Origin: Pseudomonadota bacterium
GTDB lineage: Bacteria; Pseudomonadota; Alphaproteobacteria; Paracaedibacterales; CAITNM01
Direction of reading: 5' to 3'
NCBI GenBank assembly: GCA_018062345.1
Contig: JAGOSL010000002.1
Span: forward strand, 130,192 to 194,191
DNA: 64,000 nucleotides
Positions 10,119 to 63,188 of the stretch are shown here, in pieces (position 1 is the first letter of the stretch; each line of letters begins with the position of its first letter). The translations under genes and the position numbers were made by a program. The notes under the pieces were generated by a model. That model was not told where the DNA came from and searched no databases. It worked only from the letters and a program-made list of their open reading frames with translations.

Positions 10119-10120
10119 TT

Positions 10121-20553: not shown

Positions 20554-20601
20554 TTGGCGTTCCCGACGGGATTCGAACCCATGGCCTCAAGATTAGGAAT
20601 C
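20554..20601 (-). repeat. 47-48 nt perfect copy of the 3' part of tRNA-Arg(CCU), from anticodon loop to CCA (att-like)
   Basis: tggcgttcccgacgggattcgaacccatggcctcaagattaggaatc is identical to 37069-37115, plus one flanking t. Same orientation as the intact gene. It ends 4 nt from the transporter ATG. Confidence 0.9.
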
Positions 20602-20998
20602 GTAAAATCTACTATTTTCTATAGCTTTAAATTCCTTAATAAACCTTTGCAAATATTTTTGTAACCCTTGTGTAGTCCCGAAAAAGATACAAAAACTAAG
20701 TTGAACTATAAACATGATGGATAATAAAATCAATTTTAATAAAGCAGCTTTTGATGGCACAAGATTTTTTTCTTCTGCGCCAGGTTCTGCCGAAATGTGT
20801 TGGAGGAACTGATGTTGCTTAGATAGTTGGAGGATGTTAGTAAAAGAATGAAGATATTTATGGTTACTAATTATGAAAGCAAAGCGAGATAAAGGAAGAA
20901 CTTAGAAGAGAATATCTATATATTGTCTTTAGCGTTTTGGAACATGAATACCTATTTAATACGCACGTAATCGAAGAACATAGTTCAAAGAGGTTTTT

Positions 20999-22534: not shown

Positions 22535-22704
22535 TGTCCCAAAATATAAAAAAACAAGATCTTCCTCAAAAAGTATGTATCGTTTGCAAACGTCCCTTTA
22601 CCTGGAGAAAAAAATGGAAAAAAGTTTGGGATGACGTTAAATATTGCTCTTATAAATGTCAAAAGAATAAAAAATTTTTGGTATTAGTTCAGGAAAAAAC
22701 ATGA
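22534..22704 (+). CDS. DUF2256 zinc-ribbon protein (56 aa, absent from the ORF track)
   Basis: ATG overlaps the photolyase TGA (tgATGa). The translation contains [28 protein letters not shown], the DUF2256 signature. Confidence 0.7.
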
Positions 22705-22831
22705 AGAAAACTAGGATTATCAGAGCAGGTTTATTAGCTTTTACTTTGAAAGAAAAGCTTTCTCAAAAGTTAGTGACTGCGTATTTGAAATCTGCTGATT
22801 TTGTTGTTTCAAAAAATTCGAGTTACGTCTT

Positions 22832-23311
22832 ATGAAAATCAAAAAAACCCCCTACCTTTCTTTAATCATTTGGATTTTATCAATCATAACGATTGGAGGG
22901 CTTATTGGCTCTTTAACCAAGCCGCAGATCAGCACTTGGTATATAACCTTAAATCGTGCTCCACTAACACCACCAAATTACATATTTTCTGTGGCTTGGA
23001 CTTTATTATATGCAATGATTGGCACTTGTGGCTGGCTTATTTGGCGCGAAGATTCATTTGCCCGGCTAAAGGTTATAAAAACCATATTCGTGACTCAGCT
23101 TATTCTAAACTGGATTTGGACACCCGTATTTTTCTATTATCATTTACCCAACGTTTCTCTGCTAATTTTGTGTGCTATGGATATTCTGGTTGGTATAATA
23201 ATTTGCCAGGCCTATTTAACCAAGAGAGCGGTATTCTTTTTATTGATTCCCTATTTTTTATGGATTCTATTTGCTACCTACTTAAACTTTTATATTTGGT
23301 GGTTTAACTAA
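22832..23311 (+). CDS. tspO: tryptophan-rich sensory protein TspO/MBR
   Basis: 159 aa, 5 TM. W-rich motifs WY..L.RAP.TPPN..F...WTLLY..IG...W. Confidence 0.85.
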   Translation: MKIKKTPYLSLIIWILSIITIGGLIGSLTKPQISTWYITLNRAPLTPPNYIFSVAWTLLYAMIGTCGWLIWREDSFARLKVIKTIFVTQLILNWIWTPVFFYYHLPNVSLLILCAMDILVGIIICQAYLTKRAVFFLLIPYFLWILFATYLNFYIWWFN

Positions 23312-24201
23312 TATGTTTGCTGTAAATACGGAAGACATCCCCTTAAAAGACCAGATCTGTAATCTGGATAAATTAACTCTACACCTAATTTTTTAATAAT
23401 TTTTCTGTTATTAACTTTTTTGTTATCCGTAAAAAACATTTTTAAATTCTCTGAAATTTTTGCTTCTTCTTCCAGTATTTCTTTTAATTTATCCCTCTTC
23501 AAAATTGCAGCTCCAAACTGTTGGACTATGTGAAGCGGTGCAGGCTCATTATCGCTTATGTTATAAATTTCTCCTGGTGTCGGATGGTTTATTGATCCAA
23601 GAACTAATTCGCATATATCGTCTATGTGTATCCTAGAAAAATAATGATTTTTCTTAACGATCGTAAAATTTTTACCCATGAGAATGTCTTCTAAACAGTT
23701 TCTGCCAGGACCATAAATTCCTGATAATCGAAAGACATGTACAGGCGACTTAACTGTTTTATAAAGGCTTAACCATTGTATTTCTGCGTCTAATCTCGAT
23801 CTTGCTTTTTCATTGCTTGGATAGCATGGTGTTGTTTCATCAATCCAAGCACCTTTATGGTCTCCATAGACATTTGTTGACGAAAGGTATCCTGCCCACT
23901 GCAATGACGATTTTTTGGCTGCAATGATATTGCTATATTCTTGCAAGACCGGATCTGCATTTTTCTCATTTGGCGGAATGGTAGTCACAATTACATTAGA
24001 ATCTTCAATAATTTCTGGAAGAGTGGGGTCAAAAAAATTGATGAATCTGAGATTTTCCTTTTCAACTGGAATCCCGATCTCAATTTTTCTTGAGGTGCAT
24101 ACAACATTCCAGCCAAGATGATTAAATATTTTAATCAAAGACTTCGATACATAACCGTGACCAAAAATTATTGCTTTAACTTTATTAGGTAATAGGCGCA
24201 T
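23308..24201 (-). CDS. NAD(P)-binding epimerase/dehydratase-like (extended SDR) protein
   Basis: N-terminal Rossmann-like IIFGHGYVS, SSTNVYG, IYGPGR. 297 aa. Confidence 0.55.
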   Translation of the reverse strand: MRLLPNKVKAIIFGHGYVSKSLIKIFNHLGWNVVCTSRKIEIGIPVEKENLRFINFFDPTLPEIIEDSNVIVTTIPPNEKNADPVLQEYSNIIAAKKSSLQWAGYLSSTNVYGDHKGAWIDETTPCYPSNEKARSRLDAEIQWLSLYKTVKSPVHVFRLSGIYGPGRNCLEDILMGKNFTIVKKNHYFSRIHIDDICELVLGSINHPTPGEIYNISDNEPAPLHIVQQFGAAILKRDKLKEILEEEAKISENLKMFFTDNKKVNNRKIIKKLGVELIYPDYRSGLLRGCLPYLQQTY

Positions 24202-24242
24202 GTGACTTTATTGAAAGCTATCAAGCCAGACGTTGCCTGAGT

Positions 24243-24872
24243 TCATATAGGGAAACATAGTAGCTCACTGATTGACTCACTGACTGTCTCAAACCTTGCA
24301 AATAACTGGCCATCGTAATCATCATCTCCAATAGCAATCGCTGCCATATTTAGGTTTTTGGCAAATTCCCAGTCAGTAATGCTATCTCCAATATAAACAG
24401 TATCGCTAGCATTTAATTTGAAATGTTCCAGAGCAACTAAACCCATTTCAGGATTAGGCTTATCAAAAGCAGTGTCTCCCGACCCCAGAACTAAATCAGC
24501 GGGAATATTAAATAATTCAATTTCTTCACGTAAAAGACCACCTTTTTTATTGCTGATGATTGCAATAATTTTCTCAGCCTTTTTTAATGAGTTTAGCAAG
24601 GGAAGCGTTCCGTCATACAATTTTATATCCTTTTTATTTTCATTAATTGATTTATAAAAAACGTCTAGCGCTTCTTTCCAGTCATTTCCAAATAGCTTAG
24701 GAAAACTTTCTCGCGAGGAAAGTCTGGCTCGGATTTTAACTTCCTCCATGGAAATTTCTGCTCGTCCAAAATGTTTTAATGTAACATTTGTAGCTTTGAA
24801 AAGAGTCGGCCATGTATCAACTAAAGTATTATCCCAATCGAAAAATACTGCTTTGAATTTTTGCTTTATCAT
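24243..24872 (-). CDS. HAD-superfamily phosphatase (phosphoglycolate phosphatase-like)
   Basis: Motif I FFDWDNTLVD, motif II ISNK, motif IV GDSITD. Its ATG overlaps the secretin TGA (ATGA). Confidence 0.75.
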   Translation of the reverse strand: MIKQKFKAVFFDWDNTLVDTWPTLFKATNVTLKHFGRAEISMEEVKIRARLSSRESFPKLFGNDWKEALDVFYKSINENKKDIKLYDGTLPLLNSLKKAEKIIAIISNKKGGLLREEIELFNIPADLVLGSGDTAFDKPNPEMGLVALEHFKLNASDTVYIGDSITDWEFAKNLNMAAIAIGDDDYDGQLFARFETVSESISELLCFPI

Positions 24873-26536
24873 TTTAAGGGTCTCGGGTCTGTTGTGTATT
24901 CGCTCATTAATCGATGGTCAGCGCCATCAAGCGTGGCTCCATTATCCATAATTGTAGCTTTTAAGACAATCACTAATTCCACAATCGTGTCCCCTTCTGT
25001 CAAACTACCTGTTAGATCACGCACTAAAGGTATTTCATCTAGCCCAGGAACTCCTTGTCTGTGCTCTGATGAACGCACTTCCATTAAGCCCCCAAGAATA
25101 GCCATTTCTTTGTCTTGCAGTCTTAGAACTGAGTCAATTTCTCGTACTTCTACAACTGGAATCATTGATTGAGTTGGCGATTTAGAAGCATTTGTTTCGC
25201 TGCTAATAGATGCGTTAAAAGCAATATCAATAGCTGGGTCTGCAACGGTTTGGGTAAGCCTTGATATGCTTGGTCTTAAAAATAATATTATTTCACCAGT
25301 TTGTGGGTCAATTGAAGGCTGCACCAGCATAATTAATCCAATAGGAACTGTCTGAATATCACTCGATACAGTAGTGCTTTCTCGGTTGTTCTGTGAATTA
25401 TACATTTTGTCATAGTTAAGTCTGAAATAGACTTTATTTTGTGCAACTTTCAGTATGGCTGCTTGATTGTTCATAACAGTAAGACGCGGGCTTGATAACG
25501 TGCGAACTAGCCCGAATTCTTGTAAAGTATTAGCAATAGCTGAAAATTTTGTACCATCTGCTCCAAAGCTAATCATGTCGGTTTGGGCAGTAGTTGGGTC
25601 TAAAAAAATACCTTTTCTAGTCATGTCACCAAAGTTTGCTCGCACTTGAAGATCACTATTGGTCCCAACTGTATGCCAATTAATACCGCTCCTGTACTCA
25701 TCTTTCAGTGTTACTTCAATGATTTTTGCCTCTATTAAAACTTGGCAACAAGCTATTTGGCGCAGTTTTTTTAAATATAATTCTACCTGCTGATGTTGCT
25801 TTCTATTGGCATGTAAGGATATCAATCCTGCTTGCCTATGCATTGAATACGCCCCTTTTTCCGATCCAGCATCCAAAATGGTTTTTAAGTTTTGCTCTAA
25901 TTCATCCCAAAAGTCATTTTTGGTCGTGGCCTTTAATGCGCTTTTTGACACATTGTCGCTCATATTTGTTTTTGAGGGTCCAACACTTGAAAATACATCT
26001 GAAGCAATGGATAGTTGGTCTTCGCTGGTACGAGCAAGATTCAAGAACTGCACATTATAATTTTGTGAATATGCAATATCACGTTCTATGCGAATGGCAT
26101 TATCAATAACATCAAATCTTAAATTTGCCATCTCACACATAGATTTTATTACATCTATGAATGGGCGTTTTTTTGCCGTGAAAATAATCTTTGCATCAAT
26201 TGTGTGATCTAGTTGCAAATCAACATCTGCTTGTCGAGCTAACTCAATAAAAATATTTTTAAGGGGAACTCCTTCCGAAACCGAAATACTAACAGGCTGA
26301 TACATCATCTTAGGCAGTTTTGGAATTTTTACAGATCGAGATATTTTTTTAGCTAGTGGCCCTACTGTAAAATCAGTCGGTTGAACTAAATTCTTTGCTT
26401 CTTGTTTGCTTATTTTTGGCATTAGAGGTTGATGATCAACCATTTCTCTGCAGCCTGCCAACATTAAGAAAAGTGAAAAAAATAAAGCTAGCAATTTATA
26501 TCTCCATTTTACATCACCATCTGCTAAGTGAAACAA
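24869..26536 (-). CDS. lipoprotein secretin (MshL / type IVb-pilus-secretin-like)
   Basis: Lipobox LFLMLAGC. C-terminal secretin domain (RTLSSPRLTVMNNQAAILKV...IPVVEVREIDSVLRLQDKEMAILGGL...GVPGLDEIPL...ELVIVLKATI). TTG start assumed. Confidence 0.8.
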   Translation of the reverse strand: MFHLADGDVKWRYKLLALFFSLFLMLAGCREMVDHQPLMPKISKQEAKNLVQPTDFTVGPLAKKISRSVKIPKLPKMMYQPVSISVSEGVPLKNIFIELARQADVDLQLDHTIDAKIIFTAKKRPFIDVIKSMCEMANLRFDVIDNAIRIERDIAYSQNYNVQFLNLARTSEDQLSIASDVFSSVGPSKTNMSDNVSKSALKATTKNDFWDELEQNLKTILDAGSEKGAYSMHRQAGLISLHANRKQHQQVELYLKKLRQIACCQVLIEAKIIEVTLKDEYRSGINWHTVGTNSDLQVRANFGDMTRKGIFLDPTTAQTDMISFGADGTKFSAIANTLQEFGLVRTLSSPRLTVMNNQAAILKVAQNKVYFRLNYDKMYNSQNNRESTTVSSDIQTVPIGLIMLVQPSIDPQTGEIILFLRPSISRLTQTVADPAIDIAFNASISSETNASKSPTQSMIPVVEVREIDSVLRLQDKEMAILGGLMEVRSSEHRQGVPGLDEIPLVRDLTGSLTEGDTIVELVIVLKATIMDNGATLDGADHRLMSEYTTDPRPLK

Positions 26537-26688
26537 AAGTAATAGGACTTGAGTAGCTATCAGATTTTATATATTGATTCATATTAACAATAGAAATCTA
26601 AGCACTTCCTGTTTTATAAAACGAAATGCAACACCAAGATGTTTGTTAAAAAGTAGACATAAGTAATTGGTTTTGGATAAAAGCTACT

Positions 26689-28509
26689 CTAAAGAAGTGG
26701 CTCTTCTTGGTGCAAAAGCTCTTTAAGATTTTTTGGGATACAGATCCATGTTTCAATGTTATGTTGCAAAGCACGCTCCATAAGAATCTTACCTTGCTTT
26801 GTGGCTCCAGTATGGATAAGAAAAATTCCTTCAAGCCAGAGACCAAAAAGATCTTGTGAGTTTCTAGAAAGTATGGCGTTTATAAGGCCTTTTGCTTTTG
26901 TAAAATCATTGTTCTCAATAAGTTCGCTGATATATTGAACCAATAAATCACTTCTTTTGGGTGCTTTTTGTTGAATAGCGCTTGCAATGCCATCGAATAA
27001 AAATTCTTTTTCAATTGTAGATCCTTGGAAATGTCTCATTGCATGCAGTAATGCTATATCTAGAATTAATGGACTGGTTTTTGAATCATAATTTTTAAAT
27101 ATTAAATCTAGCTCATTCATCGTTGCCTGAGAGGGGGGCTGCTTCATTTTCTTTAAAATGCTCAAAGTGAAATGCCCAAGATGGAATCCCCTGTAATTAT
27201 AAGGTTGTTTTATATCACTTGCAGTTGGTAATTTCTTACTATGAGTAAATCTAAAAAATAAAGATTTTTGATTTGCAGGATATAAGATTGCTGTGTTCCA
27301 GTAAGTTACTGCTGCATAAGCACAAAAAATTGTTGAAATCCATAACCATAAAATAGTTAAAGGAGCTCTGGTGATGGTAATTCTATGCCGATTAAATATA
27401 GAAAAGCCCACTATTAAAAAAGGCCAGACACATACTAAGGTGAACCATGTGGATGTTAAGCATCCAAAAAGTATCACGAATATGAAAATGTGAATTCTAC
27501 TCTTTCTAGTGGTAGGTTCAGATAATGGCGTAACCAGCAAAGTAATGTAAAGAATTAGTCCGATTATTCCTATACTGAAAAGTGTTTCAGCGCCAAAATG
27601 CATGCAGTGGAAGTCTAGTCTGTCAATTCCATCCCAACTAGGCTTCCAAGAATTATCTTGAAAAAATGTAACAGGAAGCCTTGTTATTTGTTTTTGCAAA
27701 TTTTCAAAATAATATCCCCATCCATTGCCAGATAATAGTTTTAGTGGATTGTCGTTCCAGGTCAGCACATAACTCTGTAGGGCTAATTTTCTGGATTCTA
27801 GTGAAGAAAATACAGGCCATTTCTCAACAATATGCTTAGCGCCTAGAACGTATATAGCTATTATCGTTCCAAACGGAATACTTGCACATAAATATTTTTG
27901 CAAACGTTGTCTGTGTTTTATTATAGGCCAAACACATAAGCTTAAAGCAAGCGCTGCCCATGCTGTTTTATTGTGCGATAATAGCAAGAGCAGGCAGCTA
28001 AGCAAGAGAAGAATTTTTTGTTGTGTCTTGCTTTTTAAGTGTGTGCTTACCGCATAAATTCCTAGTGCGATTGGTGCTAGAAAAGCTCCAAAAACGTAAG
28101 GAAGCCAATCTGGATTAACTTTTAAACCATGCTGGGGATGATGCAGAAAAACTAAAATTCCCGCAACAATACCTGCGAAAACCGCAGACCAATATATAAT
28201 GCTTTTTTCAGAGGAATTATCGATTGCAAAAGATAAAAGAGATAAACCGCAAAATAGCACTGACCCTTCTCCTAGCAAAGGGCTGCCTAAATGGTGCACG
28301 ATGGAATTGTTGGCCCATAATGTTGAAAATAAAGAAAAAAGGCCGAAACCAAAGAAAATTAATGTGTGAGCTGAGCAATACAGCTTTCTTTTTAGGCTCC
28401 ATAAAATAATCAAACATAAGCCCAGAACTGAAAATATCAAATGTGCTGTAGCCAAAACGCATTCTGAATCAACCCATATGCCAATCCTAAATGGTGGAAG
28501 CGCCATCAA
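26689..28509 (-). CDS. O-antigen ligase-like (Wzy_C) polytopic membrane protein with C-terminal TPR-like region
   Basis: At least 10 TM segments. Wzy_C-like loop plus MHFGAETLFSIGIIGLILY. Soluble C-terminal ~190 aa with TPR-like helices. This is the PglL/PilO-type architecture. Confidence 0.6.
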   Translation of the reverse strand: MMALPPFRIGIWVDSECVLATAHLIFSVLGLCLIILWSLKRKLYCSAHTLIFFGFGLFSLFSTLWANNSIVHHLGSPLLGEGSVLFCGLSLLSFAIDNSSEKSIIYWSAVFAGIVAGILVFLHHPQHGLKVNPDWLPYVFGAFLAPIALGIYAVSTHLKSKTQQKILLLLSCLLLLLSHNKTAWAALALSLCVWPIIKHRQRLQKYLCASIPFGTIIAIYVLGAKHIVEKWPVFSSLESRKLALQSYVLTWNDNPLKLLSGNGWGYYFENLQKQITRLPVTFFQDNSWKPSWDGIDRLDFHCMHFGAETLFSIGIIGLILYITLLVTPLSEPTTRKSRIHIFIFVILFGCLTSTWFTLVCVWPFLIVGFSIFNRHRITITRAPLTILWLWISTIFCAYAAVTYWNTAILYPANQKSLFFRFTHSKKLPTASDIKQPYNYRGFHLGHFTLSILKKMKQPPSQATMNELDLIFKNYDSKTSPLILDIALLHAMRHFQGSTIEKEFLFDGIASAIQQKAPKRSDLLVQYISELIENNDFTKAKGLINAILSRNSQDLFGLWLEGIFLIHTGATKQGKILMERALQHNIETWICIPKNLKELLHQEEPLL

Positions 28510-28754
28510 AAACAGCCAAAAGCTAGCAGCTATACAAATAAATAGGCATTTTTCAAAAAAATAGCTTACTCTCTTTATTGTAATCTCCGCATTTTCAGCT
28601 AGTGTTGTTTGTTAACTTTTGCTTAGTTTTTTTGATAAAGTAAGTTTTATCTTCCTTATGATGTCTTTAAATATTTAGAACCGTGTTTAAATAACAACGG
28701 TTGCCTGAAATAATAGCTAAAATATGAAATCAGTAGTAAGAAAAGACTTCATAT

Positions 28755-29741
28755 TTGTTAGTCTATATTCGTAAAGTTATAGATTTTTATCCTGTGGGCA
28801 ATTTTTGCGCGCTATTTTTATTTTTAATCGCACCCCTTCTAGGTAGCGTTGCCATTCCTTCTGTGAATCACCAGCCGGCAGTTCAAAGTCAAAACGTTGT
28901 AGGCGATACAGCAGGTGAGTCGAACGAGCCAGTCGAACAAATTACTGAAGCTCCTTCTTTAAAAGCTGCACCTATTAATCCTGATGAGCCTCAATCTTTT
29001 AAGCTTATGCCTCATAAGGCAGTTTATGAAATACATTTGCATCCAGATCCTCTTAAAAAACCAAAGGACCCTACAATTAGCGATGTGACTGGTACCGGTT
29101 CAATTGAGATTATCAAAACTAAGGAAGGTTGGGTATACCGTCAAAATTTGGCTGTACAAATTCACTATCACGATGGCACAACAACAACCATTGAGAGAAA
29201 TATTGCTTCTTGGGAATCTCCAACAGAAATATCTTTTCACATTGAAAATTTTCGTGATGGTGTGACAGAATCCCTTCTGCAAGGTGGAGCCGAAGCAACA
29301 GAAGAGGGAATTTGGAGTGTGTATTTTCAAAAACCTGAAATGGATGGCTTTATAACAGACCAACCTCTTACTTTTCCGATAATGCATCTTGAAAAAGTGC
29401 TTGAAACTATCAAAAAGGGAAACTGTATGAAGGTAGGGTGCATTCTTTCTAATCAGATTGTCTTTTCATATGAGCTGCAAGCACAAGTGCGAATTGATAC
29501 GATCGTGATTCCATTAAAAGGAGAAAGATTCTCTTTAAAAGATAGCTCATTGTTGCCCTCGAATAAGCTTTGGCGTCTCCAAGAGGCCTTATATGAATTG
29601 CAGTCAAATAATTCTGTTCCTGACTATGAAGAAAGCAACATCGATATATTTTCCACAGGCGTTATTAGTGCAATGGAAACAACGTGGGGAGAAGGTATAA
29701 CAGTTGTTTTAAAGCTTAAAGAGCTGACGGTTTATCAATAA
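28755..29741 (+). CDS. DUF1849 / EipB-like periplasmic protein
   Basis: Signal-like N-terminus, then PHKAVYEI...GW...SWES...F.DG...LTFPIMHLEKVLETIKKG, resembling the alphaproteobacterial DUF1849 pattern (PHRAVYDL...FPT.H). TTG start. Confidence 0.5.
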   Translation: MLVYIRKVIDFYPVGNFCALFLFLIAPLLGSVAIPSVNHQPAVQSQNVVGDTAGESNEPVEQITEAPSLKAAPINPDEPQSFKLMPHKAVYEIHLHPDPLKKPKDPTISDVTGTGSIEIIKTKEGWVYRQNLAVQIHYHDGTTTTIERNIASWESPTEISFHIENFRDGVTESLLQGGAEATEEGIWSVYFQKPEMDGFITDQPLTFPIMHLEKVLETIKKGNCMKVGCILSNQIVFSYELQAQVRIDTIVIPLKGERFSLKDSSLLPSNKLWRLQEALYELQSNNSVPDYEESNIDIFSTGVISAMETTWGEGITVVLKLKELTVYQ

Positions 29742-29856
29742 AAATTATAAATTCAGGTATTTCTGCAGGTAAAATATCTGAGGAAGCTTAGGCTTTTTTC
29801 TATAGCCTAATCTTATAATTTTTATCGTAACGTTAATTATTTTTGATAAAAAAAAT

Positions 29857-29893
29857 AAAGAGCTGCTTATTAAAACAGCTCTTTAGTATTTTT
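29857..29893. terminator. bidirectional rho-independent terminator between convergent genes
   Basis: AAAGAGCTG-cttattaaaa-CAGCTCTTT 9-bp stem flanked by an A-run (upstream) and a T-run (downstream). Confidence 0.6.
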
Positions 29894-29901
29894 GTAGAGA
29901 G

Positions 29902-31989
29902 CTAGTCTTGATTGACTGCTTTCATGCTTAGCTTTATTTTCCCGCGGTCATCAAACCCAAGAACCTTTACTTGCACGATATCGCCAAGCTTAACAACATC
30001 CTCAGTTTTGTTAACGCGAGTTGGGGCTAATTCACTAATGTGTACTAAGCCGTCACGTCCACCCATAATGTTTACAAACGCTCCAAATTCGGCAACTTTT
30101 ACGACTTTGCCTTCATAGATATGACCAACTTCTGGGTCACAAGCAATTCCTTGAATCATTTTTACTGCTGCATCCATTGCTTCTTGTGTGACGCCAGCTA
30201 CAGTAACTTGGCCGTCGTCTTCAATGTCAACTTTAGCGCCAGTTGTTTCGCAAATTTCGCGAATTACTTTACCGCCAGAACCAATCACTTCACGAATTTT
30301 GGAAGGATTAATTTTAAAGGTTGTCATCTTTGGCGCATACGTACTTAATTGGCTTCTGGAATATTCAAGAGCTTTAGACATTTCCCCAAGAATATGTAGG
30401 CGACCTTTTTGTGCTTGTGCTAAAGCTTCTTTCATAATGCTGGCAGTAATACTGGTAATTTTAATGTCCATTTGCAGAGCTGTAATACCCTCTGTAGTTC
30501 CAGCAACTTTGAAATCCATATCTCCCAAATGATCTTCATCGCCTAAAATATCACTTAGAACTGCATATTTTTTTCCTTCTTTTACAAGCCCCATAGCAAT
30601 GCCAGCAATAGGTTTAGATAATGGTGTGCCAGCATCCATTAGGGCAAGTGATGTGCCGCATACGGTTGCCATTGAAGATGAACCATTAGATTCAGTGATT
30701 TCTGAAACCACACGAATTGTGTAGGAAAACTGTTCTTTTGTAGGTAGTAGTGGATTAATTGCTCTCCATGCTAACTTTCCATGACCTATTTCACGTCTGC
30801 CAACGCCGCTTAAGCGTCCTACTTCACCGACGGAATATGGTGGAAAATTATAATGAAGTAAAAATCGCTCTTTATATTCACCTTCCAAAGCATCAATAAT
30901 TTGTTCATCTTGGCCTGTTCCAAGTGTCGCAACAACTAACGCTTGTGTTTCTCCGCGGGTAAATAACGCGCTTCCATGAGCACGTGGTAAAACGCCAACT
31001 TCTGCAACAATTGGGCGAATCTCATCAAGTTTTCGACCATCAAGCCTTTTTTGTGAATCCAAAATGTCACCACGCAGAATCTCTGATTGCAAATCGGTAA
31101 AGGCACTGTTTACTAATTTTGGAGATGTTTCCATATACTCAGCTAGTTCTTGCGCAACTTTTTGTTTTGCGGCGTCAATTGCTGCATAGCGGTCTTGTTT
31201 AATTTTTATGTTATATGCTTTGCGTAAATCTTTTTCCGCAATCTTTGCAACTTTTTTTGAAATTTCTGTAACTTCAGAGGCTGCTTTAGGCAGTGCCCAT
31301 TGTGGTTTTCCTGCTTTTTTTACAAGCTTTTCAATAAGTTTTAAAACTGGTTGAAAGCTTTCATGTCCGAATTCTACGGCACTTAGCATTATATCTTCTG
31401 GTAGTTCTTTTGCTTCTGATTCAACCATTAATACTCCTTCTTTGGTGCCAGCTACAACCAAATCAAGATCTGATGCCTTCATTGCTTCAAGAGTAGGATT
31501 AAGAACTAATTTTCCATTAATGTGCCCAACTTTTGCTACCCCTACTGGTCCTTGAAAAGGAATACCTGAGATTGCAAGTGCTGCAGAAGCACCAATCAGC
31601 GCAGTAATATCGGTATCATTTTCAAAGTCATAAGCGAGTACTGTGCAAATAACTTGCACTTCGTTGCGAAAATCTTCAGGAAATAAGGGGCGAATCGGTC
31701 TGTCAATAAGCCGAGATTTCAGTGTTTCAGAATCAGAAGGTCTGCCTTCGCGACGCAAAAATCCTCCGGGAATTTTTCCAGCAGCAAATGTTTTTTCTTG
31801 GTAGTGTACGCTTAAGGGGAAAAAATCTATATCAGGCTTTGCATCTTTTTGTGCAACGACGGTACACAATACTGTTGTTCCGCCATAGGTTGCCATTATG
31901 GCACCATCTGCTTGGCGGGCAACTTTCCCTGTTTCTAGTACTAGTTTGCGGCCAGCCCATTCAATTTCTTCACGTGTAATGTTAAACAT
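29902..31989 (-). CDS. pnp: polyribonucleotide nucleotidyltransferase (PNPase)
   Basis: Two RNase PH domains plus KH and S1 ([13 protein letters not shown]). 695 aa. Confidence 0.95.
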
Positions 31990-32016
31990 AAAATTTCCTA
32001 ATGGTTAAAATGTAAA

Positions 32017-32047
32017 ATGGAAGAACCGCAAGCATGTTCTTCCATTA
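32017..32047 (-). terminator. rpsO terminator / pnp leader hairpin
   Basis: 11-bp stem AATGGAAGAAC...GTTCTTCCATT followed on the minus strand by TTTTACATTTT. Its position matches the classical rpsO-pnp intergenic hairpin. Confidence 0.6.
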
Positions 32048-32088
32048 TGTGTTTACAGCAGATAATGTGATTCAAATTTTTCACAAAT

Positions 32089-32358
32089 TTAGCGACGAAT
32101 ATTCAAGCGCTTAATTAACGTTTGATAACGATCCTCATTAACGCGCTTTAAATAATCAAGTAAGCGGCGACGCTGGCCGACAAGCATCAGCAATCCTCGA
32201 CGAGAGTGTAAATCGTGCTTGTGTTCTTGCATGTGGTCGGAAAGATTTTTAATGCGTTCAGATATAATAGCAACCTGAACTTCTGGTGAACCCGTATCAC
32301 TCGCTTTTGTTGCAAATTCTTTAATAACTTCTTGTTTACGTGTTGGACTAATCGACAT
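32089..32358 (-). CDS. rpsO: 30S ribosomal protein S15
   Basis: 89 aa. GSPEVQVA..., [22 protein letters not shown]. Confidence 0.95.
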
Positions 32359-32378
32359 CGAACATTCCTTTACTTTAG

Positions 32379-33242
32379 TTAAATGTTAAACACACGATCC
32401 GGATAAAATATATTATCTTGCACGTGACCAAGGGCGATGAGCTTGTCATCGAGCCAGGCCGAAGTATTAGAACAATTGCTTTTACATACTTCAACTGCTT
32501 GACCGTGCTGGATCTTAGTAGCCTTTTGAAACGATACAGATACTGCCGGGATGTCGTCCAGAACAGATCCAATCGGTAACAAAAAGCAAGCCAGGGAAGT
32601 ATCGCCTATTTTTTTTATATTTTCCAGTGAAATCGCATTATCAATATTAAAATGGCCAACACGTGTTCTCCTCAACATTGTTAAATGGCCAACAGATCCA
32701 AGGTATAACGCCAGATCCCTTCCCAGGGAGCGCACGTATGTTCCTGTGCCACATGTTACGCTGAGAGTGGCGTTTCCCCCTTCATAAGCATCAAGAGTAA
32801 GGTCATAAATTTTTACTTGCCTAGAAGGCATGTCTATTTCTTCTCCATCACGAGCTCTTTTGTAAGCTGGTTTTCCTTTAATTTTTATCGCTGAATATAT
32901 TGGCGGAGTTTGCTGTATTAAGCCTGTAAAAATTTTTAAAGATGAATATATGTCTTCTAAGGAAGGTCTGTGTTCAGAAGTAGCAACAATCTCACCTTCT
33001 GTGTCACCCGTTGTTGTTTGGGCTCCAAAAGAAAGAGTAAATTGATAAGTTTTTGAACTATTCATCAAATAAGGCATTGTTTTAGTGGCTTCGCCAAGGG
33101 CTAAGGGCAAAACTCCACTTGCAAAAGGATCTAGTGTTCCCGCGTGGCCAATCTTTTTTTGGCCAAAAGCACGCTTTACTATGCTGCCAGCATGAGTAGA
33201 GGTTATGCCTTCAGGTTTATCTAAAACTAGCCAGCCGTGCAT
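32379..33242 (-). CDS. truB: tRNA pseudouridine(55) synthase
   Basis: [11 protein letters not shown] and [15 protein letters not shown] (catalytic Asp). Confidence 0.9.
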
Positions 33243-33245
33243 ATG

Positions 33246-33884
33246 CTAAAAACGATAATAAATGATGCAATCGGGATTTTTGTTATCCAAATTCAAATGT
33301 CCGTCTCTTATGCATCTTCCTGTAGCTCCTGGTGCATCTTTCACGATTAATTGCCCTTGATTGAGGTCAACTGCGCTACTTCCTTGATCAATTTTATTTT
33401 TCAAAGCTTGAGCTTGTTTTGGGGTTAAAAGGCCAGAGCCTTCTTCTTTTGCTAACATAAGCCAATGTCCAGGCATTTCTGCTGAGGGTTGAAACACAAC
33501 AGTGTATTTCCCGCCAAGCTTCGAGGCTGGTGCTTTGTCACCATTGATAATAGATGCCTTACTTAAGTGCTGCCAGAAAAGATCTGCCTCAACACCTGTA
33601 ATCTGGCCATTACCATCGCCAGATGTTGTGCCTGTGAAATGCATTGTTGCTCTGGGATCATCCCCAGGAAGAGACTGATAAATTTCTTGATACGTGTTGA
33701 CAGCTAGCGAGTAATGTTGAAAATCTTGAACAACAGAGCGAATTTTTGCATTTCCTAAAAGTTCTTGACCTTTAAAAACAGCTCCGGTGATAAGCCCAAT
33801 TACTACCAGCACAATAGACATTTCTATCAAAGAGAAAGCTGGAACTACCATGGTCAGTGGCTTTTTCCATCTGCTATTTCTCAT
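33246..33884 (-). CDS. type IV pilin-like / pseudopilin protein (prepilin-type N-terminal methylation domain)
   Basis: Leader MRNSRWKKPLTMVVPA, then FSLIEMSIVLVVIGLITGAVF (F1...E5 hydrophobic helix). C-terminal Cys pair GRCIRDGHLNLDNKNPDC resembles a pilin D-region. Its stop lies 3 nt before the truB start. Confidence 0.7.
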   Translation of the reverse strand: MRNSRWKKPLTMVVPAFSLIEMSIVLVVIGLITGAVFKGQELLGNAKIRSVVQDFQHYSLAVNTYQEIYQSLPGDDPRATMHFTGTTSGDGNGQITGVEADLFWQHLSKASIINGDKAPASKLGGKYTVVFQPSAEMPGHWLMLAKEEGSGLLTPKQAQALKNKIDQGSSAVDLNQGQLIVKDAPGATGRCIRDGHLNLDNKNPDCIIYYRF

Positions 33885-34064
33885 TAATTTGTCCTTTTTT
33901 ATGGTCCATGATTAGTATAAAAGGTTTTTCTATGGAATCAATTCTTTAAGCATATTCGAATTGAGTAATTGAAAGTTGCTTATATTTCTGAAGTTGAATG
34001 ACTTGGCATAAAAAGCACGCTCTAAAAATTAGAACGTGCTTAAAAGTGATTTGTTTTGTTTTAC

Positions 34065-36140
34065 TTATGCAGCGCCTGCTGCTTCAGTTTGCTTTGAGAG
34101 GTATGGCGCCAAGGATTGTTGCAGTGGTGATGTAACAGATGCTTTTAGAGTGCTTTCATCTACTACTGACGTTTGGGGGTTAGGCGCCAAATTTTCGCCA
34201 TTATTTATTACTTCATCGCCTGCGGAGTTATCAAGAGGAAGAGTTTGTTGTTGCTCCATATTCGTGCCGTCATCTGCTAAACCATTTGCAACGGGTTTTG
34301 TTACTTCGTCGCCTGAGGAGTTATCAAGAGGAAGAGTTTGTTGTTGCTCCATATTCGTGCCGTCATCTGCTAAACCATTTGCAACGGGTTTGGTTACTTC
34401 GTCGCCTGCGGAGTTATCAAGAGGAAGAGTTTGTTGTTGCTCCATATTCGTGCCGTCATCTGCTAAGCTATTTGCAACGGGTTTGGTTACTTCGTCGCCT
34501 GCGGAGTTATCAAGAGGAAGAGTTTGTTGTTGCTCCACATTCGTGCCGTCATCTGCTAAACCATTCGATTGAGAAGCTAAATCTCCAGCAGGGGCATTTA
34601 GAAGGGTAGGCGATAACATTGCGTTATCATCTTTAGTTTTTGCTGTGGCCACTTGTATAATAGCGTTATGAGCTTTATCTAGTCTTTTCTCTGCTTCTAG
34701 TTTTTCTTCTTCTGCCTTTTGTGCCAGAATAGCTGCCTGTTTAGCTTCTTCTTCTGCTGCTAATTTTTCCTGTTCAGCCTTTTGCGCTAAGATTGCCGCT
34801 TGTTTAGCCTCTTCTTCTGCAGCCAGTTTTTCTTCTTCTGACTGCTCACGGGCTGCTTTTTCTAGAATTAATTCATTTTGTGTTGCATCTAAAATTGCTT
34901 TAGCGTTTTCAGCTTCTAGATCAGCTTTTGCTTTTTCTAATTTTTGTTCGTCGGCTGTAGTAAGTGCCTGAGCGGCCAACTCTTTAGCAGCATCTAGCTG
35001 TGCTTGCATAAGTCTCATTGATTCCATGGCTGCTTCATATTCTTTTACAGCTAGGTTATGTTTTTCTTGTAATGATTTCATTTCATCAGGTGAAAAAGTA
35101 GTTGACCTTAGGTGCTCCACATATCTGCGTGCTGTTTGAGGATCTATTTCCGATGAAAACATTAGATTAACAGATATACCTTCTCCAGATATGCGAATTT
35201 GTCGCAGGTTATTACTATTTTCATCATCTAAAGCTAAAGAAAACATTGCAACAGCTACATTTGGAAGTGTACTGAATAGTTCTAAAAGTTTGCTTACAAG
35301 TTTTAAAAAGGTTTCTTGGGTAGCTTTAGGATCAGAAGTTGTGCAGACAAGATTCATTTGTTTGCCCTCAAATATACCGTCTCCAAACTGAAATTTCTTG
35401 GTTAGAAGGCCTTCTGAATTTGTAGCTGCTGGAAGATCAGTATTAACAGATTGCCCTGGTTCAGCAGCAACAGCATATGCCCCTGATTTTAACTTTTCTT
35501 GAAGTTCAGCTAACTCTTCTTTCGCCTTTTGTAATGCTTTCTCCTTTTCTGTGGCTTCTAAATCAGGGACTTCATAAACATAAACGGATGCTTGCTTGCC
35601 AAGAATTAAAGACGCATTTGGATCAGGCTCTTCTGTGTATGGGTATAAATAATTATTTTCGTCTTTATACATCCACCATTCTTTTGGATCTCCAGAATAT
35701 CCGGGAAAATTACCGATGTTTGCATTTGCAGGAACAAGCTTAATCTCATCCTTGTTATCATTTTTTCTTAATACGTATACAATTGCCGCACCTTCTGGCA
35801 TCTTTTCTCCTGCCATATACGGAAAATTTTGTTTGCCAGTTGGGTCGTATATTCCACCATCTTGGAATTTAAGTTTTTTAGTAATCATGCCTGGATGCAT
35901 TGATTTATCAAAAAATTGAACTTCAATTTCATTGCCGTCCAAATTGATCGCTTTGTATTTTTTTTCTGATTTTTCCTCTGAAGAATGTTCTTTATTTTCT
36001 TCTGAAATAGCAGAGTCTGTTGCAGCTAGAGCAGGGCTCTGCCCTTCAATTGAAGCAGAATCTTCTGCTGTTGCATGCATTTCATTTATCCAAGAGAACG
36101 AAGAACCTAAAAGTAAGGAAAATAATAATTTTTTATTCAT
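34065..36140 (-). CDS. secreted repeat protein (coiled-coil A/E/K-rich region plus 4 x 31-aa C-terminal repeats)
   Basis: Signal peptide MNKKLLFSLLLGSSFSWINEMHA. EEKLAAEEEAKQAAILAQKAE repeats. NGLADDGTNMEQQQTLPLDNSAGDEVTKPVA x4. Confidence 0.6.
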   Translation of the reverse strand: MNKKLLFSLLLGSSFSWINEMHATAEDSASIEGQSPALAATDSAISEENKEHSSEEKSEKKYKAINLDGNEIEVQFFDKSMHPGMITKKLKFQDGGIYDPTGKQNFPYMAGEKMPEGAAIVYVLRKNDNKDEIKLVPANANIGNFPGYSGDPKEWWMYKDENNYLYPYTEEPDPNASLILGKQASVYVYEVPDLEATEKEKALQKAKEELAELQEKLKSGAYAVAAEPGQSVNTDLPAATNSEGLLTKKFQFGDGIFEGKQMNLVCTTSDPKATQETFLKLVSKLLELFSTLPNVAVAMFSLALDDENSNNLRQIRISGEGISVNLMFSSEIDPQTARRYVEHLRSTTFSPDEMKSLQEKHNLAVKEYEAAMESMRLMQAQLDAAKELAAQALTTADEQKLEKAKADLEAENAKAILDATQNELILEKAAREQSEEEKLAAEEEAKQAAILAQKAEQEKLAAEEEAKQAAILAQKAEEEKLEAEKRLDKAHNAIIQVATAKTKDDNAMLSPTLLNAPAGDLASQSNGLADDGTNVEQQQTLPLDNSAGDEVTKPVANSLADDGTNMEQQQTLPLDNSAGDEVTKPVANGLADDGTNMEQQQTLPLDNSSGDEVTKPVANGLADDGTNMEQQQTLPLDNSAGDEVINNGENLAPNPQTSVVDESTLKASVTSPLQQSLAPYLSKQTEAAGAA
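34208..34570. repeat. 93-bp tandem repeat, about 3.9 near-identical copies, in-frame within the CDS
   Basis: Units start at 34208, 34301, 34394 and 34487 (ttacttcRtcgcctgMggagttatcaagaggaagagtttgttgttgctcca...). Only a few substitutions between copies. Confidence 0.9.
34700..34835. repeat. about 63-bp tandem repeat (about 2 copies) encoding the A/E/K-rich 21-aa unit
   Basis: gccttttgYgcYaRaatWgcYgcYtgtttagcYtcttcttctgc recurs with a 63-bp period. Coordinates are approximate. Confidence 0.6.
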
Positions 36141-36209
36141 AATAATAAAACCCTAGTTAAGAATTTTTAACCTGAGTCTATTAAATCAAAAATAAATTAA
36201 TAAAATATT

Positions 36210-36243
36210 AAAAAAGCTCACCAAAGTATAGCGAGCTTTTTTT
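36210..36243. terminator. rplT terminator hairpin (A/T-flanked, potentially bidirectional)
   Basis: AAAAAAGCTC-accaaagtatagc-GAGCTTTTTT just downstream of the rplT stop. Confidence 0.5.
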
Positions 36244-36263
36244 AAAGTTTAGTTTGAAAAAAA

Positions 36264-36617
36264 TTAGGCAGACTTTTTAACTTGATCTACTAAAGCTTTG
36301 AAACTTTCAGGCTGATTCATTGCTAAATCAGCAAGAACTTTCCGATCGATATCAATATTGTTTTTTTGCAAAGCGCTAATGAATACTGAATAGGTTAGCC
36401 CCAATTCACGGACAGCTGCATTAATACGCTGAATCCAAAGTGCCCTAAAATTACGCTTCTTAACGCGGCGATCGCGATAAGCATAAGTTAATGCTTTTTC
36501 AACTCTCTGTATTGCTGAGCGAAAGCAAGTGCTAGAGCGCCCACGATAGCCTTTGGCCATCTTTATAATTTTTTTGTGACGTGCGTGCGTTGTGACGCCT
36601 CTTTTTACTCGTGCCAT
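36264..36617 (-). CDS. rplT: 50S ribosomal protein L20
   Basis: [17 protein letters not shown]..., 117 aa. Confidence 0.95.
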
Positions 36618-36626
36618 GATAACTCC

Positions 36627-36824
36627 TTAGACGTGAAAATAGTAAGTGCGAATACGCTTGATCTCTGGAGATGCGCATATTTTCATGCCGCGAGCATTTC
36701 GTAAAAATTTATTTGAACGTTTCCGCATGCCATGGCGTTTTCCAGCCGGAGCTACCTTCACTTTTCCTGTGCCAGTAAGGCGAAAGCGCTTCTTGACACT
36801 GCTTTTTGTTTTTAATTTGGGCAT
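36627..36824 (-). CDS. rpmI: 50S ribosomal protein L35
   Basis: [22 protein letters not shown]..., 65 aa. Confidence 0.95.
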
Positions 36825-37068
36825 TTTATCTCTCTAAAGTTAATAATTTAAGTAATTTACCGCAACAAAGGCATGCCCGGGCACTATACCCTAGCCACGC
36901 TGCTATATAGTGTATAAATGGTTTTTTTGTATAAATCAAGAATTTTTGTGTGCGAGTTCAGGCGATTTGAGTCAACAAAGCCATGATTTATAGCTTATTA
37001 AATGCAACCCCGGTGCAACCTCGAGCAATCTTTATGACGCTACTAAATCTTAAATACATTGGTGCAAT

Positions 37069-37145
37069 TGGCGTTCCCGACGGGATTCGAACCCATGGCC
37101 TCAAGATTAGGAATCTTGCGCTCTATCCTGCTGAGCTACGGGAAC
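37069..37145 (-). tRNA. tRNA-Arg (anticodon CCT), CCA encoded
   Basis: Reverse complement: GTTCCCG-TA-GCTC-AGCAGGATA-GAGC-G-CAAGA-TTCCTAA-TCTTG-AGGCC-ATGGG-TTCGAAT-CCCGT-CGGGAAC-G-CCA. Confidence 0.92.
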
Positions 37146-63038: not shown

Positions 63039-63142
63039 AATAAATGAAGGCGTTTTAGGGGCTTTTGTTTTTAGTCAAAAAATTTCAGTGCTACCCTGGT
63101 GCTACTTTTAACGAAAGTTAAGAAAATATCTTAATTGAAATT

Positions 63143-63188
63143 TCCTAGATTTTAAGGCCATGGGTTCGAATCCCGTCGGGAACGCCAA
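63143..63188 (+). repeat. third, inverted copy of the tRNA-Arg(CCU) 3' segment (34 nt exact, 5' third diverged)
   Basis: 63155-63188 aggccatgggttcgaatcccgtcgggaacgccaa is identical to the tRNA-Arg 3' end. 63143-63154 (ttcctagatttta) is a diverged match to the anticodon region. No tRNA 5' half precedes it. Confidence 0.85.

What the first reader, a model, noticed from the sequence alone, without database searches (positions are those of the whole stretch)
36975..37068. About 95 nt downstream of tRNA-Arg are homologous to the DNA downstream of the third copy, with covarying phased 7-mers
Read in the tRNA direction, 37068-36975 aligns with 63188-63285 at roughly 80 percent identity. The alignment includes an 18-nt identical block, atttaagatttagtagcg. 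Within it the tandem 7-mers differ coordinately: GGTTGCA-ccgg-GGTTGCA (37003-37020, minus strand) versus GGTTACA-ctgg-AGTTACA (63237-63254). The same G-to-A change is present in both half-sites of one locus. Coordinated change that preserves a direct repeat suggests a protein-binding site co-evolving with its binding protein, for example two related integrase or excisionase specificities. A shared promoter or operator module is an alternative. In both loci the next gene starts at nearly the same distance (244 nt to rpmI, 238 nt to the 63426 ORF). A GGTTACA also occurs on the element side of the 20601 copy (minus strand near 20660), which is weak evidence.
Basis: seen in the sequence. Interest (0 to 1): 0.6.

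Follow-up and report, generated by a model that had tools for sequence, protein, structure and literature searches.

The report
Relic integrase attachment-site arm beside tRNA-Arg
The ~95 bases after tRNA-Arg and their look-alike 26 kb away are decaying leftovers of the "arm" of an attachment site used by tRNA-targeting mobile elements, and the phased short repeats in them look like former integrase docking sites, so this is a genuine but ordinary footprint of past integration.

Summary
37055-36977 (minus) aligns with 63201-63281 at 81% identity over 81 columns (z = 24 against shuffles), and both stretches directly follow an identical 32-nt tRNA-Arg(CCT) 3' end.

Three related alphaproteobacterial MAGs have tRNA-Arg directly followed by the CitMHS transporter gene. 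So 20602-37068 is a 16.5-kb insertion into the tRNA, bounded by a 48-nt identity block that starts at the anticodon loop. X1 is therefore the insertion-side (P') arm of attL.

Pairs of 9-mers resembling GGGGTTACA, phased 11 bp apart, occur exactly three times in the 64-kb window: in X1, in X2, and in the opposite (P) arm beside the displaced tRNA fragment at 20554-20601. The same pair lies next to tyrosine-integrase genes or tRNA att cores in four unrelated viral contigs. A weaker X-like module with its own pair follows tRNA-Asn.

X evolves at or above the neutral rate. One strain has lost a repeat unit. The window holds no integrase. X contains no promoter, terminator or RNA structure signal.

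The G/A "covariation" is not a specificity switch, because the P arm of the same insertion carries A where its P' arm carries G.

Verdict: relic attP arm with probable former arm-type integrase sites; a new member of a known kind, of low to moderate interest.

The parts
37069..37145 (-). Intact tRNA-Arg(CCT); its 3' 48 nt (37068-37115) form the att identity block of attL
   Evidence: ARAGORN, Rfam tRNA 69.3 bits, 48-nt exact direct repeat with 20554-20601
36975..37068 (-). X1: insertion-side (P') arm relic of attL; homologous to X2 over 37055-36977
   Evidence: Absent downstream of tRNA-Arg in relatives L027/L028/L032 and absent upstream of rpmI in L001
37003..37022 (-).
   Evidence: One unit is deleted in strains L005/L023
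20554..20601 (-). Displaced 48-nt 3' fragment of tRNA-Arg (attR core), starting at the anticodon loop, followed by the ancestral downstream gene (CitMHS transporter, 19219-20550)
   Evidence: In relatives the full tRNA abuts this transporter. The fragment is decaying in L025, which has one substitution
20660..20679 (-). P-arm phased 9-mer pair GGGACTACA (20679-20671) and AGGGTTACA (20668-20660), 11-nt spacing, 59-77 nt upstream of the attR core, same orientation as the tRNA
   Evidence: Conserved in L025 and L026
20602..20998 (-). Non-coding insertion-side arm of attR (P arm region) between the DPRP gene and the displaced fragment
63141..63187 (+). Third, degenerate tRNA-Arg 3' block (anticodon loop to CCA; the last 32 nt are exact), with no tRNA 5' half
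   Evidence: inverted repeats I1 and I2. It drifts at 10% between the window and L039
63188..63285 (+). X2: P'-type arm homologous to X1, with the pair GGGGTTACA (63235-63243) and GGAGTTACA (63246-63254)
   Evidence: Evolves at 6.1% against 2.9% at fourfold sites of the neighbouring gene
63040..63140 (+). XA: start of a strain-specific insertion directly after tRNA-Asn (62964-63039). It is an X-like module (63077-63112 resembles 63223-63260) with its own exact pair GTGCTAC-cctg-GTGCTAC (63088-63105), starting 48 nt after the tRNA-Asn 3' end
   Evidence: Insertion relative to L011-L019. Similarity 28/36, z = 6.2, 0 of 2000 shuffles reach it. Pair
36825..36947 (-). rpmI promoter and leader block. 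It is not part of X; it marks where cargo begins
   Evidence: Nearly invariant across 11 sequences, including L001, which lacks the tRNA and X

Best explanation
X1 and X2 are homologous relics of the element-borne P' arm of the attP site of a family of integrative elements. These elements recombine in the anticodon-loop-to-3'-end segment of tRNA genes. In the window's lineage, DNA entered tRNA-Arg(CCT) by tyrosine-integrase recombination. The event regenerated the tRNA (attL = tRNA + X1) and displaced a 48-nt 3' fragment (attR = P arm + fragment + the old downstream gene). The 11-bp-phased GRGGTTRCA 9-mer pairs, one pair in each arm and all in the tRNA's orientation, are most likely former arm-type sites. 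The N-terminal arm-binding domain of a heterobivalent (P4/lambda-like) integrase would have bound them to bridge arm and core in the intasome. No integrase remains here and the modules now decay neutrally, so they are currently inert. Shown: the homology, the insertion relative to relatives, the placement of X on the insertion side, the motif pairs in both arms, the same pair next to integrase/tRNA att regions elsewhere, and the neutral decay. Inferred: integrase binding, and the history of X2.
For: Empty site: L027, L028 and L032 have fabF-ychF-sel1-tRNA-Arg-CitMHS-ileS-lspA contiguous, with the same upstream flank as the window's tRNA. The window instead has tRNA-Arg, X1, 16.5 kb, a 48-nt exact tRNA fragment, then CitMHS. 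The identity block starts at the anticodon loop. That is the commonest attP class in Islander, which uses an intact tDNA plus its displaced fragment to mark island ends (PMC4383910). X is absent downstream of tRNA-Arg in those relatives and absent upstream of rpmI in L001, so it belongs to neither ancestral flank. Motif pairs: two 9-mers, each within 2 mismatches of GGGGTTACA and spaced 10-12 nt, occur exactly three times in 64 kb on both strands, at 63235(+), 37022(-) and 20679(-). All are within 80 nt of a tRNA-Arg block and in the tRNA's direction. Shuffled windows give 0.35 pairs. Across 570 kb of related loci the pair occurs only at these three sites. Only 5 exact 7-mer pairs at 11-nt spacing exist in the window, and 2 of them lie in att arms. 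Independent elements: the pair starts 47 nt after tRNA-Lys in L074. In L065 it lies 18 nt upstream of an integrase gene with Pfam Arm-DNA-bind_3 and Phage_integrase domains, and about 150 nt upstream of a tRNA-Phe-like 3' fragment that starts at the anticodon arm. In L053 it sits at the 5' end of another Arm-DNA-bind_3 integrase gene. In L070 it lies beside an integrase plus tRNA-Met. A second tRNA in the window, tRNA-Asn, is followed at a strain-specific insertion by an X-like module with its own 11-nt-phased pair at the same offset. Published precedent: paired 11-bp arm-type sites flanking tRNA/tmRNA cores in mycobacteriophages, and five arm-type sites in the ICEMlSymR7A attP (PMC3203893; PMC11963761). 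Relic status: X2 differs 6.1% between strains, against 2.9% at fourfold sites of the adjacent gene. X1 differs from the L002-4 allele by 16-29%, against 4-10% at fourfold sites. There are unit and base deletions in strains.
Against: No integrase or excisionase gene lies in the window or in the 5.5 kb beyond it in L020. The 16.5 kb between attL and attR holds only housekeeping genes (rpmI, rplT, truB, rpsO, pnp, a secretin and others), which is atypical for an island. The third copy lacks an Arg-type P-arm pair, so it is not an intact attP. About half of the 24 viral matches to the degenerate 18-mer are collagen-like coding repeats, and in L060/L063 the motif forms clusters near a VapE-like primase gene, which could be iterons rather than integrase sites. 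The literature search by motif string found no description of it. Binding was not and cannot be tested here.
Confidence: 0.65

Rival explanations
1. X2 is not an element's own P' arm. It is a copy of the chromosomal tRNA-Arg-X junction of a related strain. For example, it could be an attR formed when a later element integrated into a tRNA-Arg already followed by the X relic, and was then carried to the tRNA-Asn island. Or it could be a segmental duplication. The X1/X2 similarity would then be plain common descent with no separate element family.
For: The third copy has the left boundary typical of attP or attR: homology to the tRNA starts at the anticodon loop. It lacks an Arg-type P-arm pair upstream. 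X1, the L002-4 allele and X2 are roughly equidistant, in a star-like pattern. This is what divergent orthologous junctions would give.
Against: This rival still needs X to have come from an element in the first place, because the ancestral attB has no X. The X-like module after tRNA-Asn and the same pair at the same offset after tRNA-Lys in L074 show that the design travels with elements, not with the tRNA-Arg locus. Homology stops about 30 nt before the rpmI promoter block, so no chromosomal cargo came along.
Confidence: 0.2
2. X is a currently functional cis-regulatory module: an operator for a winged-helix regulator of the OmpR/PhoB type (two 7-mers separated by a 4-nt spacer), or a promoter serving the downstream genes.
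For: The direct 7-mers at 11-bp spacing match the geometry of such operators (established knowledge of pho boxes). The next genes start at similar distances, 244 and 238 nt.
Against: No sigma-70-like promoter lies in either X. The rpmI promoter and leader are a separate block, conserved without X in L001. X evolves at or above the neutral rate and tolerates loss of a whole unit. The downstream genes are unrelated (rpmI against a 714-aa protein with no known domain). A third pair lies in the opposite arm at 20679, pointing at a tRNA fragment rather than at a gene start.
Confidence: 0.05
3. X encodes a small RNA or a structured tRNA trailer/terminator that was duplicated together with the tRNA 3' end.
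For: X directly follows a tRNA 3' end. RNAalifold draws a 10-bp stem between GATTTAGTAGC and GCTATRAATC that all alleles keep.
Against: Folding z-scores range from +0.97 to -0.75 on either strand. The covariation term is only -0.79 kcal/mol and the long stem shows no double-sided changes. There is no Rfam hit at gathering score or at E <= 1. No terminator-like site was found. The 3' stem block carries indels within the population in L009 and L010.
Confidence: 0.03

Closest known systems
Arm-type binding sites of heterobivalent tyrosine integrases (lambda P/P' arms; paired 11-bp sites in mycobacteriophages CrimD, Giles, L5 and Pixie; P1-P5 of ICEMlSymR7A)
   Same: Short direct repeats lie in both arms flanking a tRNA-derived core. 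They come as adjacent pairs about one helical turn apart, and after integration the arms are split between attL and attR (PMC3203893; PMC11963761). Here there is one pair in the P arm and one in the P' arm. The same 9-mer pair lies next to Arm-DNA-bind_3 integrase genes in L053 and L065.
   Different: No cognate integrase is present in the window, and the sites are decaying. Binding is untested. The 9-mer GGGGTTACA was not found described in the searched literature.
tDNA genomic islands as defined by Islander (regenerated tRNA plus displaced 3' fragment, anticodon-centred attP class)
   Same: There is an intact tRNA-Arg plus a 48-nt direct 3' fragment that begins at the anticodon loop, 16.5 kb apart. 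Three relatives have the empty site (PMC4383910).
   Different: Islander requires an integrase gene inside the island and none is present. The content is housekeeping genes rather than accessory cargo.
Coordinated arm-site consensus changes between related phages (CrimD T against Anaya G at position 7, mixed in Adephagia)
   Same: Related elements differ at one position in all their arm sites, and the integrase N-terminal domain changes with them (PMC3203893).
   Different: Here the two arms of a single insertion disagree: A in the P arm and G in the P' arm. This resembles the mixed Adephagia state at best. No integrase sequences exist to compare. Slippage offers a non-selective route.
OmpR/PhoB-type direct-repeat operators (7-mer, 4-nt spacer, 7-mer)
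   Same: The geometry of two 7-mers at 11-bp spacing is the same (established knowledge).
   Different: There is no associated promoter and no conservation, and the repeats sit in att arms on both sides of a tRNA block.

Membership tests
tRNA-gene integration junctions (attL/attR) of a tyrosine-integrase element | Intact tRNA gene plus a displaced 3' fragment in direct orientation | tested here: met
   Exact 48-nt direct repeat, 37068-37115 and 20554-20601
tRNA-gene integration junctions (attL/attR) of a tyrosine-integrase element | Uninterrupted (empty) site in related genomes | tested here: met
   In L027, L028 and L032 the tRNA-Arg is directly followed by CitMHS-ileS-lspA and preceded by sel1-ychF-fabF
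tRNA-gene integration junctions (attL/attR) of a tyrosine-integrase element | Identity block at a canonical sublocation (anticodon loop, or T-loop/acceptor junction) | tested here: met
   The block begins at the base before the anticodon loop TTCCTAA. This corresponds to class A in Islander
tRNA-gene integration junctions (attL/attR) of a tyrosine-integrase element | Integrase gene inside the inserted DNA | tested here: not met
   All sizeable ORFs in 20.6-37.1 kb are housekeeping or unknown, and there is no Phage_integrase hit anywhere in the window
Arm-type integrase binding sites of an attP | The same short motif repeated in both arms flanking the core | tested here: met
   Pairs at 37022-37003 (P' arm) and 20679-20660 (P arm). 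These, together with X2, are the only such pairs in 64 kb; shuffles give 0.35
Arm-type integrase binding sites of an attP | Association of the motif with integrases that carry an arm-DNA-binding domain | tested here: met
   The GGGGTTACA pair is adjacent to integrase genes with PF13356 + PF00589 in L053 and L065, and beside tRNA cores in L065, L070 and L074. This evidence comes from other elements, not from this locus
Arm-type integrase binding sites of an attP | Cognate integrase present and binding the sites | not testable with these tools
   No integrase is present at this locus. Binding needs EMSA or footprinting
Arm-type integrase binding sites of an attP | Sites maintained by selection (currently functional) | tested here: not met
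   Divergence is at or above the fourfold-site rate, with unit loss in L005/L023 and a 1-nt deletion in L039
   The same insertion has A in both P-arm units and G in both P'-arm units. The L002-4 allele has AGTCACA and GGTTACA
Structured RNA / sRNA / terminator | Thermodynamic or covariation support, or an Rfam match | tested here: not met
Promoter/operator of the downstream gene | Promoter elements within the module, and conservation together with the regulated gene | tested here: not met
   No promoter-like site lies in X. The rpmI promoter and leader are conserved without X in L001

The most novel reading that the evidence does not exclude
The att-arm relics may mark integrase-mediated relocation of core chromosome. 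On this reading, a 16.5-kb block made only of housekeeping genes (rpmI, rplT, truB, rpsO, pnp, a pilus secretin) was excised as a circle between relic att sites and re-integrated into tRNA-Arg by an integrase acting in trans. It was then fixed because it carries essential genes. The family's arm-site 9-mer (GGGGTTACA pairs about 48 nt beyond the tRNA end) would be a widely conserved signature shared by elements that target different tRNAs (Arg, Asn-like variant, Lys, Phe, Met). The tandem arrangement of tRNA-Asn, XA, Arg block and X2 would be a snapshot of an element switching or doubling its tRNA target.
Probability: 0.15. Interest if true: 0.6.

Novelty: new member of a known kind. Interest (0 to 1): 0.3.

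Why it matters
The result explains three puzzling tRNA-Arg fragments and a local hypervariable spacer in an uncultured freshwater alphaproteobacterium as integration scars. It also gives a concrete candidate arm-site motif: GGGGTTACA pairs, 11-bp phased, starting about 46-48 nt beyond the tRNA end. That motif could help to delimit degraded islands that have lost their integrase.

The result also warns against reading concerted changes in tandem repeats as protein co-evolution when slippage is demonstrably active.

The more interesting by-product is the nature of the DNA between the att sites. It consists of essential housekeeping genes and has a GC skew opposite to its flanks. If confirmed, this would document integrase-linked rearrangement of core genome.

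Tried and rejected
**Exact-pattern scans.**
- The X module (AAGATTYAGTAGCR...ARATYGCTYGRRGT) gave 0 hits in genome contigs and 0 in viral contigs. It gave 4 metagenome contigs, all of them the same tRNA-Arg/rpmI locus of close relatives.
- The tRNA 3' end 32-mer and an anticodon-to-T-arm 31-mer gave 0 viral hits.
- A relaxed X pattern gave 0 viral hits.

**Homology between non-X arms.** I looked for similarity between the P-arm region of copy 2 and the sequence left of the third copy. blastn with word size 7 found none.

**Compensated anticodon stem.** I considered that the third copy keeps a compensated anticodon stem, which would make it a truncated foreign tRNA. I rejected this because the L039 allele shows that those bases are simply drifting.

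**MITE with 11-bp terminal inverted repeats** (GATTTAGTAGC/GCTATAAATC). Rejected: there are only two copies, both abutting tRNA-Arg blocks. The apparent block conservation is within chance expectation given 58% invariant columns, and the 3' block has indels among strains.

**Inversion between the inverted copies.** Rejected: the 26 kb between them has the same arrangement in strain JACCDN010449946.1, which lacks the third copy.

**Tracing the 714-aa protein next to X2.** Homologues at about 58% identity sit beside GTA-like head genes, with no X or tRNA nearby. A 98% homologue (L039) supplied only a second X2 allele.

**Outgroup context of the inserted block.** The RpsO look-up returned only close relatives with the same order.

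**Literature search for the motif string.** It returned only unrelated primer sequences.

**GTGCTAC pair in viral contigs.** There was one hit, in a coding-like repeat, which is uninformative.

Full report
**1. The observation**

ARAGORN finds a full tRNA-Arg(CCT) at 37069-37145(-). Its last 32 nt recur exactly at 20555-20586(-) and at 63156-63187(+). The copy at 20554-20601 is an exact 48-nt direct repeat of the tRNA's 3' part.

The sequence after the tRNA (X1, 37068 downward) aligns with the sequence after the third copy (X2, 63188 upward).
- blastn gives 81.5% identity over 81 columns, 37055-36977 against 63201-63281.
- The local alignment score is 83, against 18.7 +/- 2.7 in 1000 dinucleotide shuffles (z = 24).
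- The best of 622 other windows of this sequence scores 30.

**2. What the surroundings show**

The window comes from an uncultured freshwater alphaproteobacterium. It is close to GCA_020047435.1, and related contigs occur in several metagenomes.

The decisive comparison is with three more distant relatives, L027, L028 and L032.
- There the same tRNA-Arg, with the same upstream flank, is directly followed by the CitMHS transporter gene.
- Their gene order is fabF-ychF-sel1-tRNA-Arg-CitMHS-ileS-lspA.
- In the window the transporter (19219-20550) is preceded only by the 48-nt tRNA fragment.
- The full tRNA lies 16.5 kb away and is followed by X1.

So 20602-37068 is an insertion into the tRNA, with duplication of a block that starts at the anticodon loop. 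Islander uses this signature to delimit tDNA islands, and anticodon-centred sites are its commonest class (PMC4383910).

X1 abuts the identity block on the insertion side. By the logic of attP x attB recombination it is therefore the P' arm of attL.

X is absent from the ancestral downstream flank. It is also absent from upstream of rpmI in L001. In L001, homology to the window begins only at the rpmI promoter and leader (about 36947), which are nearly invariant in all 11 sequences. X therefore belongs to neither ancestral neighbour, and it does not carry the rpmI promoter.

**3. The repeats occur in both arms, and only there**

I took GGGGTTACA, the X2 unit, as consensus. I then asked for two 9-mers, each within two mismatches of it and spaced 10-12 nt apart.
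- There are exactly three such pairs in 64 kb, counting both strands.
- They are 63235(+) in X2, 37022(-) in X1, and 20679(-).
- The third is GGGACTACA-N2-AGGGTTACA. It lies 59-77 nt upstream of the displaced fragment, in the opposite (P) arm of the same insertion.
- All three point in the tRNA's direction.
- Shuffled windows give 0.35 pairs.
- Single 9-mer matches are common (114 in the window). The phased pair beside copy 2 is therefore expected by chance at roughly 3e-4 to 2e-3.
- Across 570 kb of related loci the pair is found only at these three orthologous places.
- Of only five exact 7-mer pairs at 11-nt spacing in the whole window, two lie in att arms.

**4. The same design elsewhere**

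A scan of viral contigs with GGTTRCACYGGRGTTRCA returned 24 loci. About half are collagen-like coding repeats (GYTGVT) and are chance matches. Four of the non-coding hits are informative.

| Locus | Context of the GGGGTTACA pair |
|---|---|
| L074 | tRNA-Lys, then the pair starting 47 nt after the tRNA 3' end, about the same offset as X1 and X2 |
| L065 | Integrase gene with Pfam Arm-DNA-bind_3 and Phage_integrase domains, the pair 18 nt upstream of its start, then about 150 nt further a tRNA-Phe-like 3' fragment starting at the anticodon arm; an attR-like layout matching 20679-20554 |
| L053 | The pair sits at the 5' end of another Arm-DNA-bind_3 integrase gene |
| L070 | An integrase, tRNA-Met, then GGGGTT sites at +49, followed by the pair |

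Within the window, tRNA-Asn (62964-63039) is followed by a strain-specific insertion.
- Nine related strains have rpsT-topA at that position.
- The first 100 nt of the insertion (XA) are similar to X2 at the same offset: 28/36 matches, z = 6.2, and 0 of 2000 shuffles reach the score.
- XA carries its own exact pair, GTGCTAC-N4-GTGCTAC, starting 48 nt after the tRNA-Asn 3' end.

Paired 11-bp arm-type sites flanking tRNA or tmRNA cores are documented for mycobacteriophages CrimD, Giles, L5 and Pixie (PMC3203893). Five arm-type sites are required in the ICEMlSymR7A attP (PMC11963761).

Together this makes arm-type integrase sites the best reading of the repeats. Pairs in both arms fit integrase arm sites better than excisionase sites, which typically occupy one arm. 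That last point is an inference from the lambda paradigm.

**5. The modules are relics**

- No integrase is present in the window or in the 5.5 kb beyond it in L020.
- Between the window and L039, X2 differs at 6.1% and the tRNA-like block at 10%. Fourfold sites of the adjacent 714-aa gene differ at only 2.9%.
- L039 has lost one base inside the first unit.
- At the tRNA-Arg locus, strain L005/L023 lacks exactly one 11-nt unit. L009 and L010 have indels in the GCTATAAATC block.
- The L002-4 lineage carries a third allele. It differs from X1 by 16% (blastn) to 29% (multiple alignment), against 4-10% at fourfold sites of the neighbouring genes.
- In that lineage the divergent patch begins inside the tRNA, with a G-to-T change in the 3' strand of the T stem. 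It ends near column 100 of the alignment.
- Within the patch, X1, X1' and X2 are about equidistant. Beyond it, X1 and X1' are 92% identical.
- This fits replacement of the arm by a later family member followed by deletion, but short-patch recombination is not excluded.

**6. The covariation claim**

The G/A position does not separate two specificities.
- The insertion that has G in both P'-arm units has A in both P-arm units.
- The L002-4 allele has AGTCACA and GGTTACA at 12-nt spacing.
- Loss of a unit by slippage is observed directly. Loss and re-duplication can therefore homogenise the units without selection.
It cannot be tested here without integrase sequences.

**7. Rejected alternatives**

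- Promoter or operator: no promoter-like or terminator-like site lies in X, and the rpmI promoter is independent of X.
- Structured RNA: folding z-scores lie between +0.97 and -0.75. The covariation term is negligible. There is no Rfam match even at E <= 1.
- Inversion between the inverted copies: the intervening 26 kb has the same order in a strain that lacks the third copy.

**8. What remains unexplained**

First, the third copy (block + X2) has no Arg-type P-arm pair. It sits directly after XA, giving two P'-type modules in tandem at the left end of the tRNA-Asn insertion. It could be a fossil attR formed on an X-bearing attB, or the remnant of a dual or switched attP.

Second, the 16.5 kb between attL and attR consists of housekeeping genes (rpmI, rplT, truB, rpsO, pnp, a secretin, EipB-like and others). 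Its GC skew is about zero to negative, against +0.1 to +0.2 in both flanks. Either an island's content was replaced by later rearrangements, or a core segment was itself moved through att sites.

**9. Verdict**

The homology is real, and it is explained as relic attachment-site arms of tRNA-targeting integrative elements, with probable former arm-type integrase sites. This is a new member of a well-known kind and is currently non-functional. Interest is low to moderate. The most interesting part is the core-gene content of the inserted block.

Noticed in passing
window 20602-37068: The 16.5 kb bounded by tRNA-Arg and its displaced 48-nt fragment holds only housekeeping or cell-envelope genes (rpmI, rplT, a 691-aa repeat protein, truB, rpsO, pnp, EipB-like, secretin, HAD, epimerase, TspO, DPRP) and no mobility gene. 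Its GC skew is about 0 to negative, against +0.1 to +0.2 in both flanks. Three outgroup MAGs have the uninterrupted tRNA-Arg-CitMHS site.
   Followed up: partly
window 63040-64000; L020 10480-15852; L039: There is a strain-specific insertion directly after tRNA-Asn; nine related strains have rpsT-topA there. It carries a 714-aa protein with no Pfam domain, a SUKH-family immunity protein, and a large toxin-like ORF. L039 has an IS630 transposase after the 714-aa gene. Homologues of the 714-aa protein at about 58% identity lie beside GTA-like portal/protease/capsid genes in other lineages.
   Followed up: partly
L002-L004 position about 2744 (tRNA-Arg): In this sister lineage the tRNA-Arg carries a G-to-T change in the 3' strand of the T stem, creating a T-T mismatch. 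This is exactly where the divergent X allele begins, which suggests that the tRNA 3' end was replaced together with the arm.
   Followed up: partly
window 36825-36947 (-): About 120 nt upstream of rpmI are almost invariant in 11 sequences, including a distant relative with a different upstream neighbour. This may be the promoter plus an autoregulatory leader of the rpmI-rplT operon. Rfam gave no match. rpmI-rplT lies about 25 kb from pheS-pheT (7782-11134), with which it is usually linked.
   Followed up: partly
window 34115-34565 and 34690-34843: The gene for the 691-aa secreted-looking protein contains four tandem 93-nt repeats (97% identical) and a 63-nt repeat series. Many related assemblies break at this gene, and its length varies among strains (611-774 aa).
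   Followed up: no
window 55625-55790 (+): A cobalamin riboswitch (Rfam 102 bits) lies upstream of a TonB-dependent receptor/TonB/ABC cluster (55870-59387).
   Followed up: no
L060 4254-4512; L063 3600-3850; L059 1393-1533: In some viral contigs, GGGGTTACA-type units form clusters of 3-7 direct and inverted copies. In L060 the cluster lies next to a VapE-like primase gene. These could be replication iterons rather than integrase arm sites, so the motif may have more than one use.
   Followed up: partly
L014 and L019 8736-9848: Two related strains carry a DDE_Tnp_1 transposase inserted between the arginase and thioredoxin genes. It is absent at the orthologous place in the window (about 62460-62561).
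   Followed up: no
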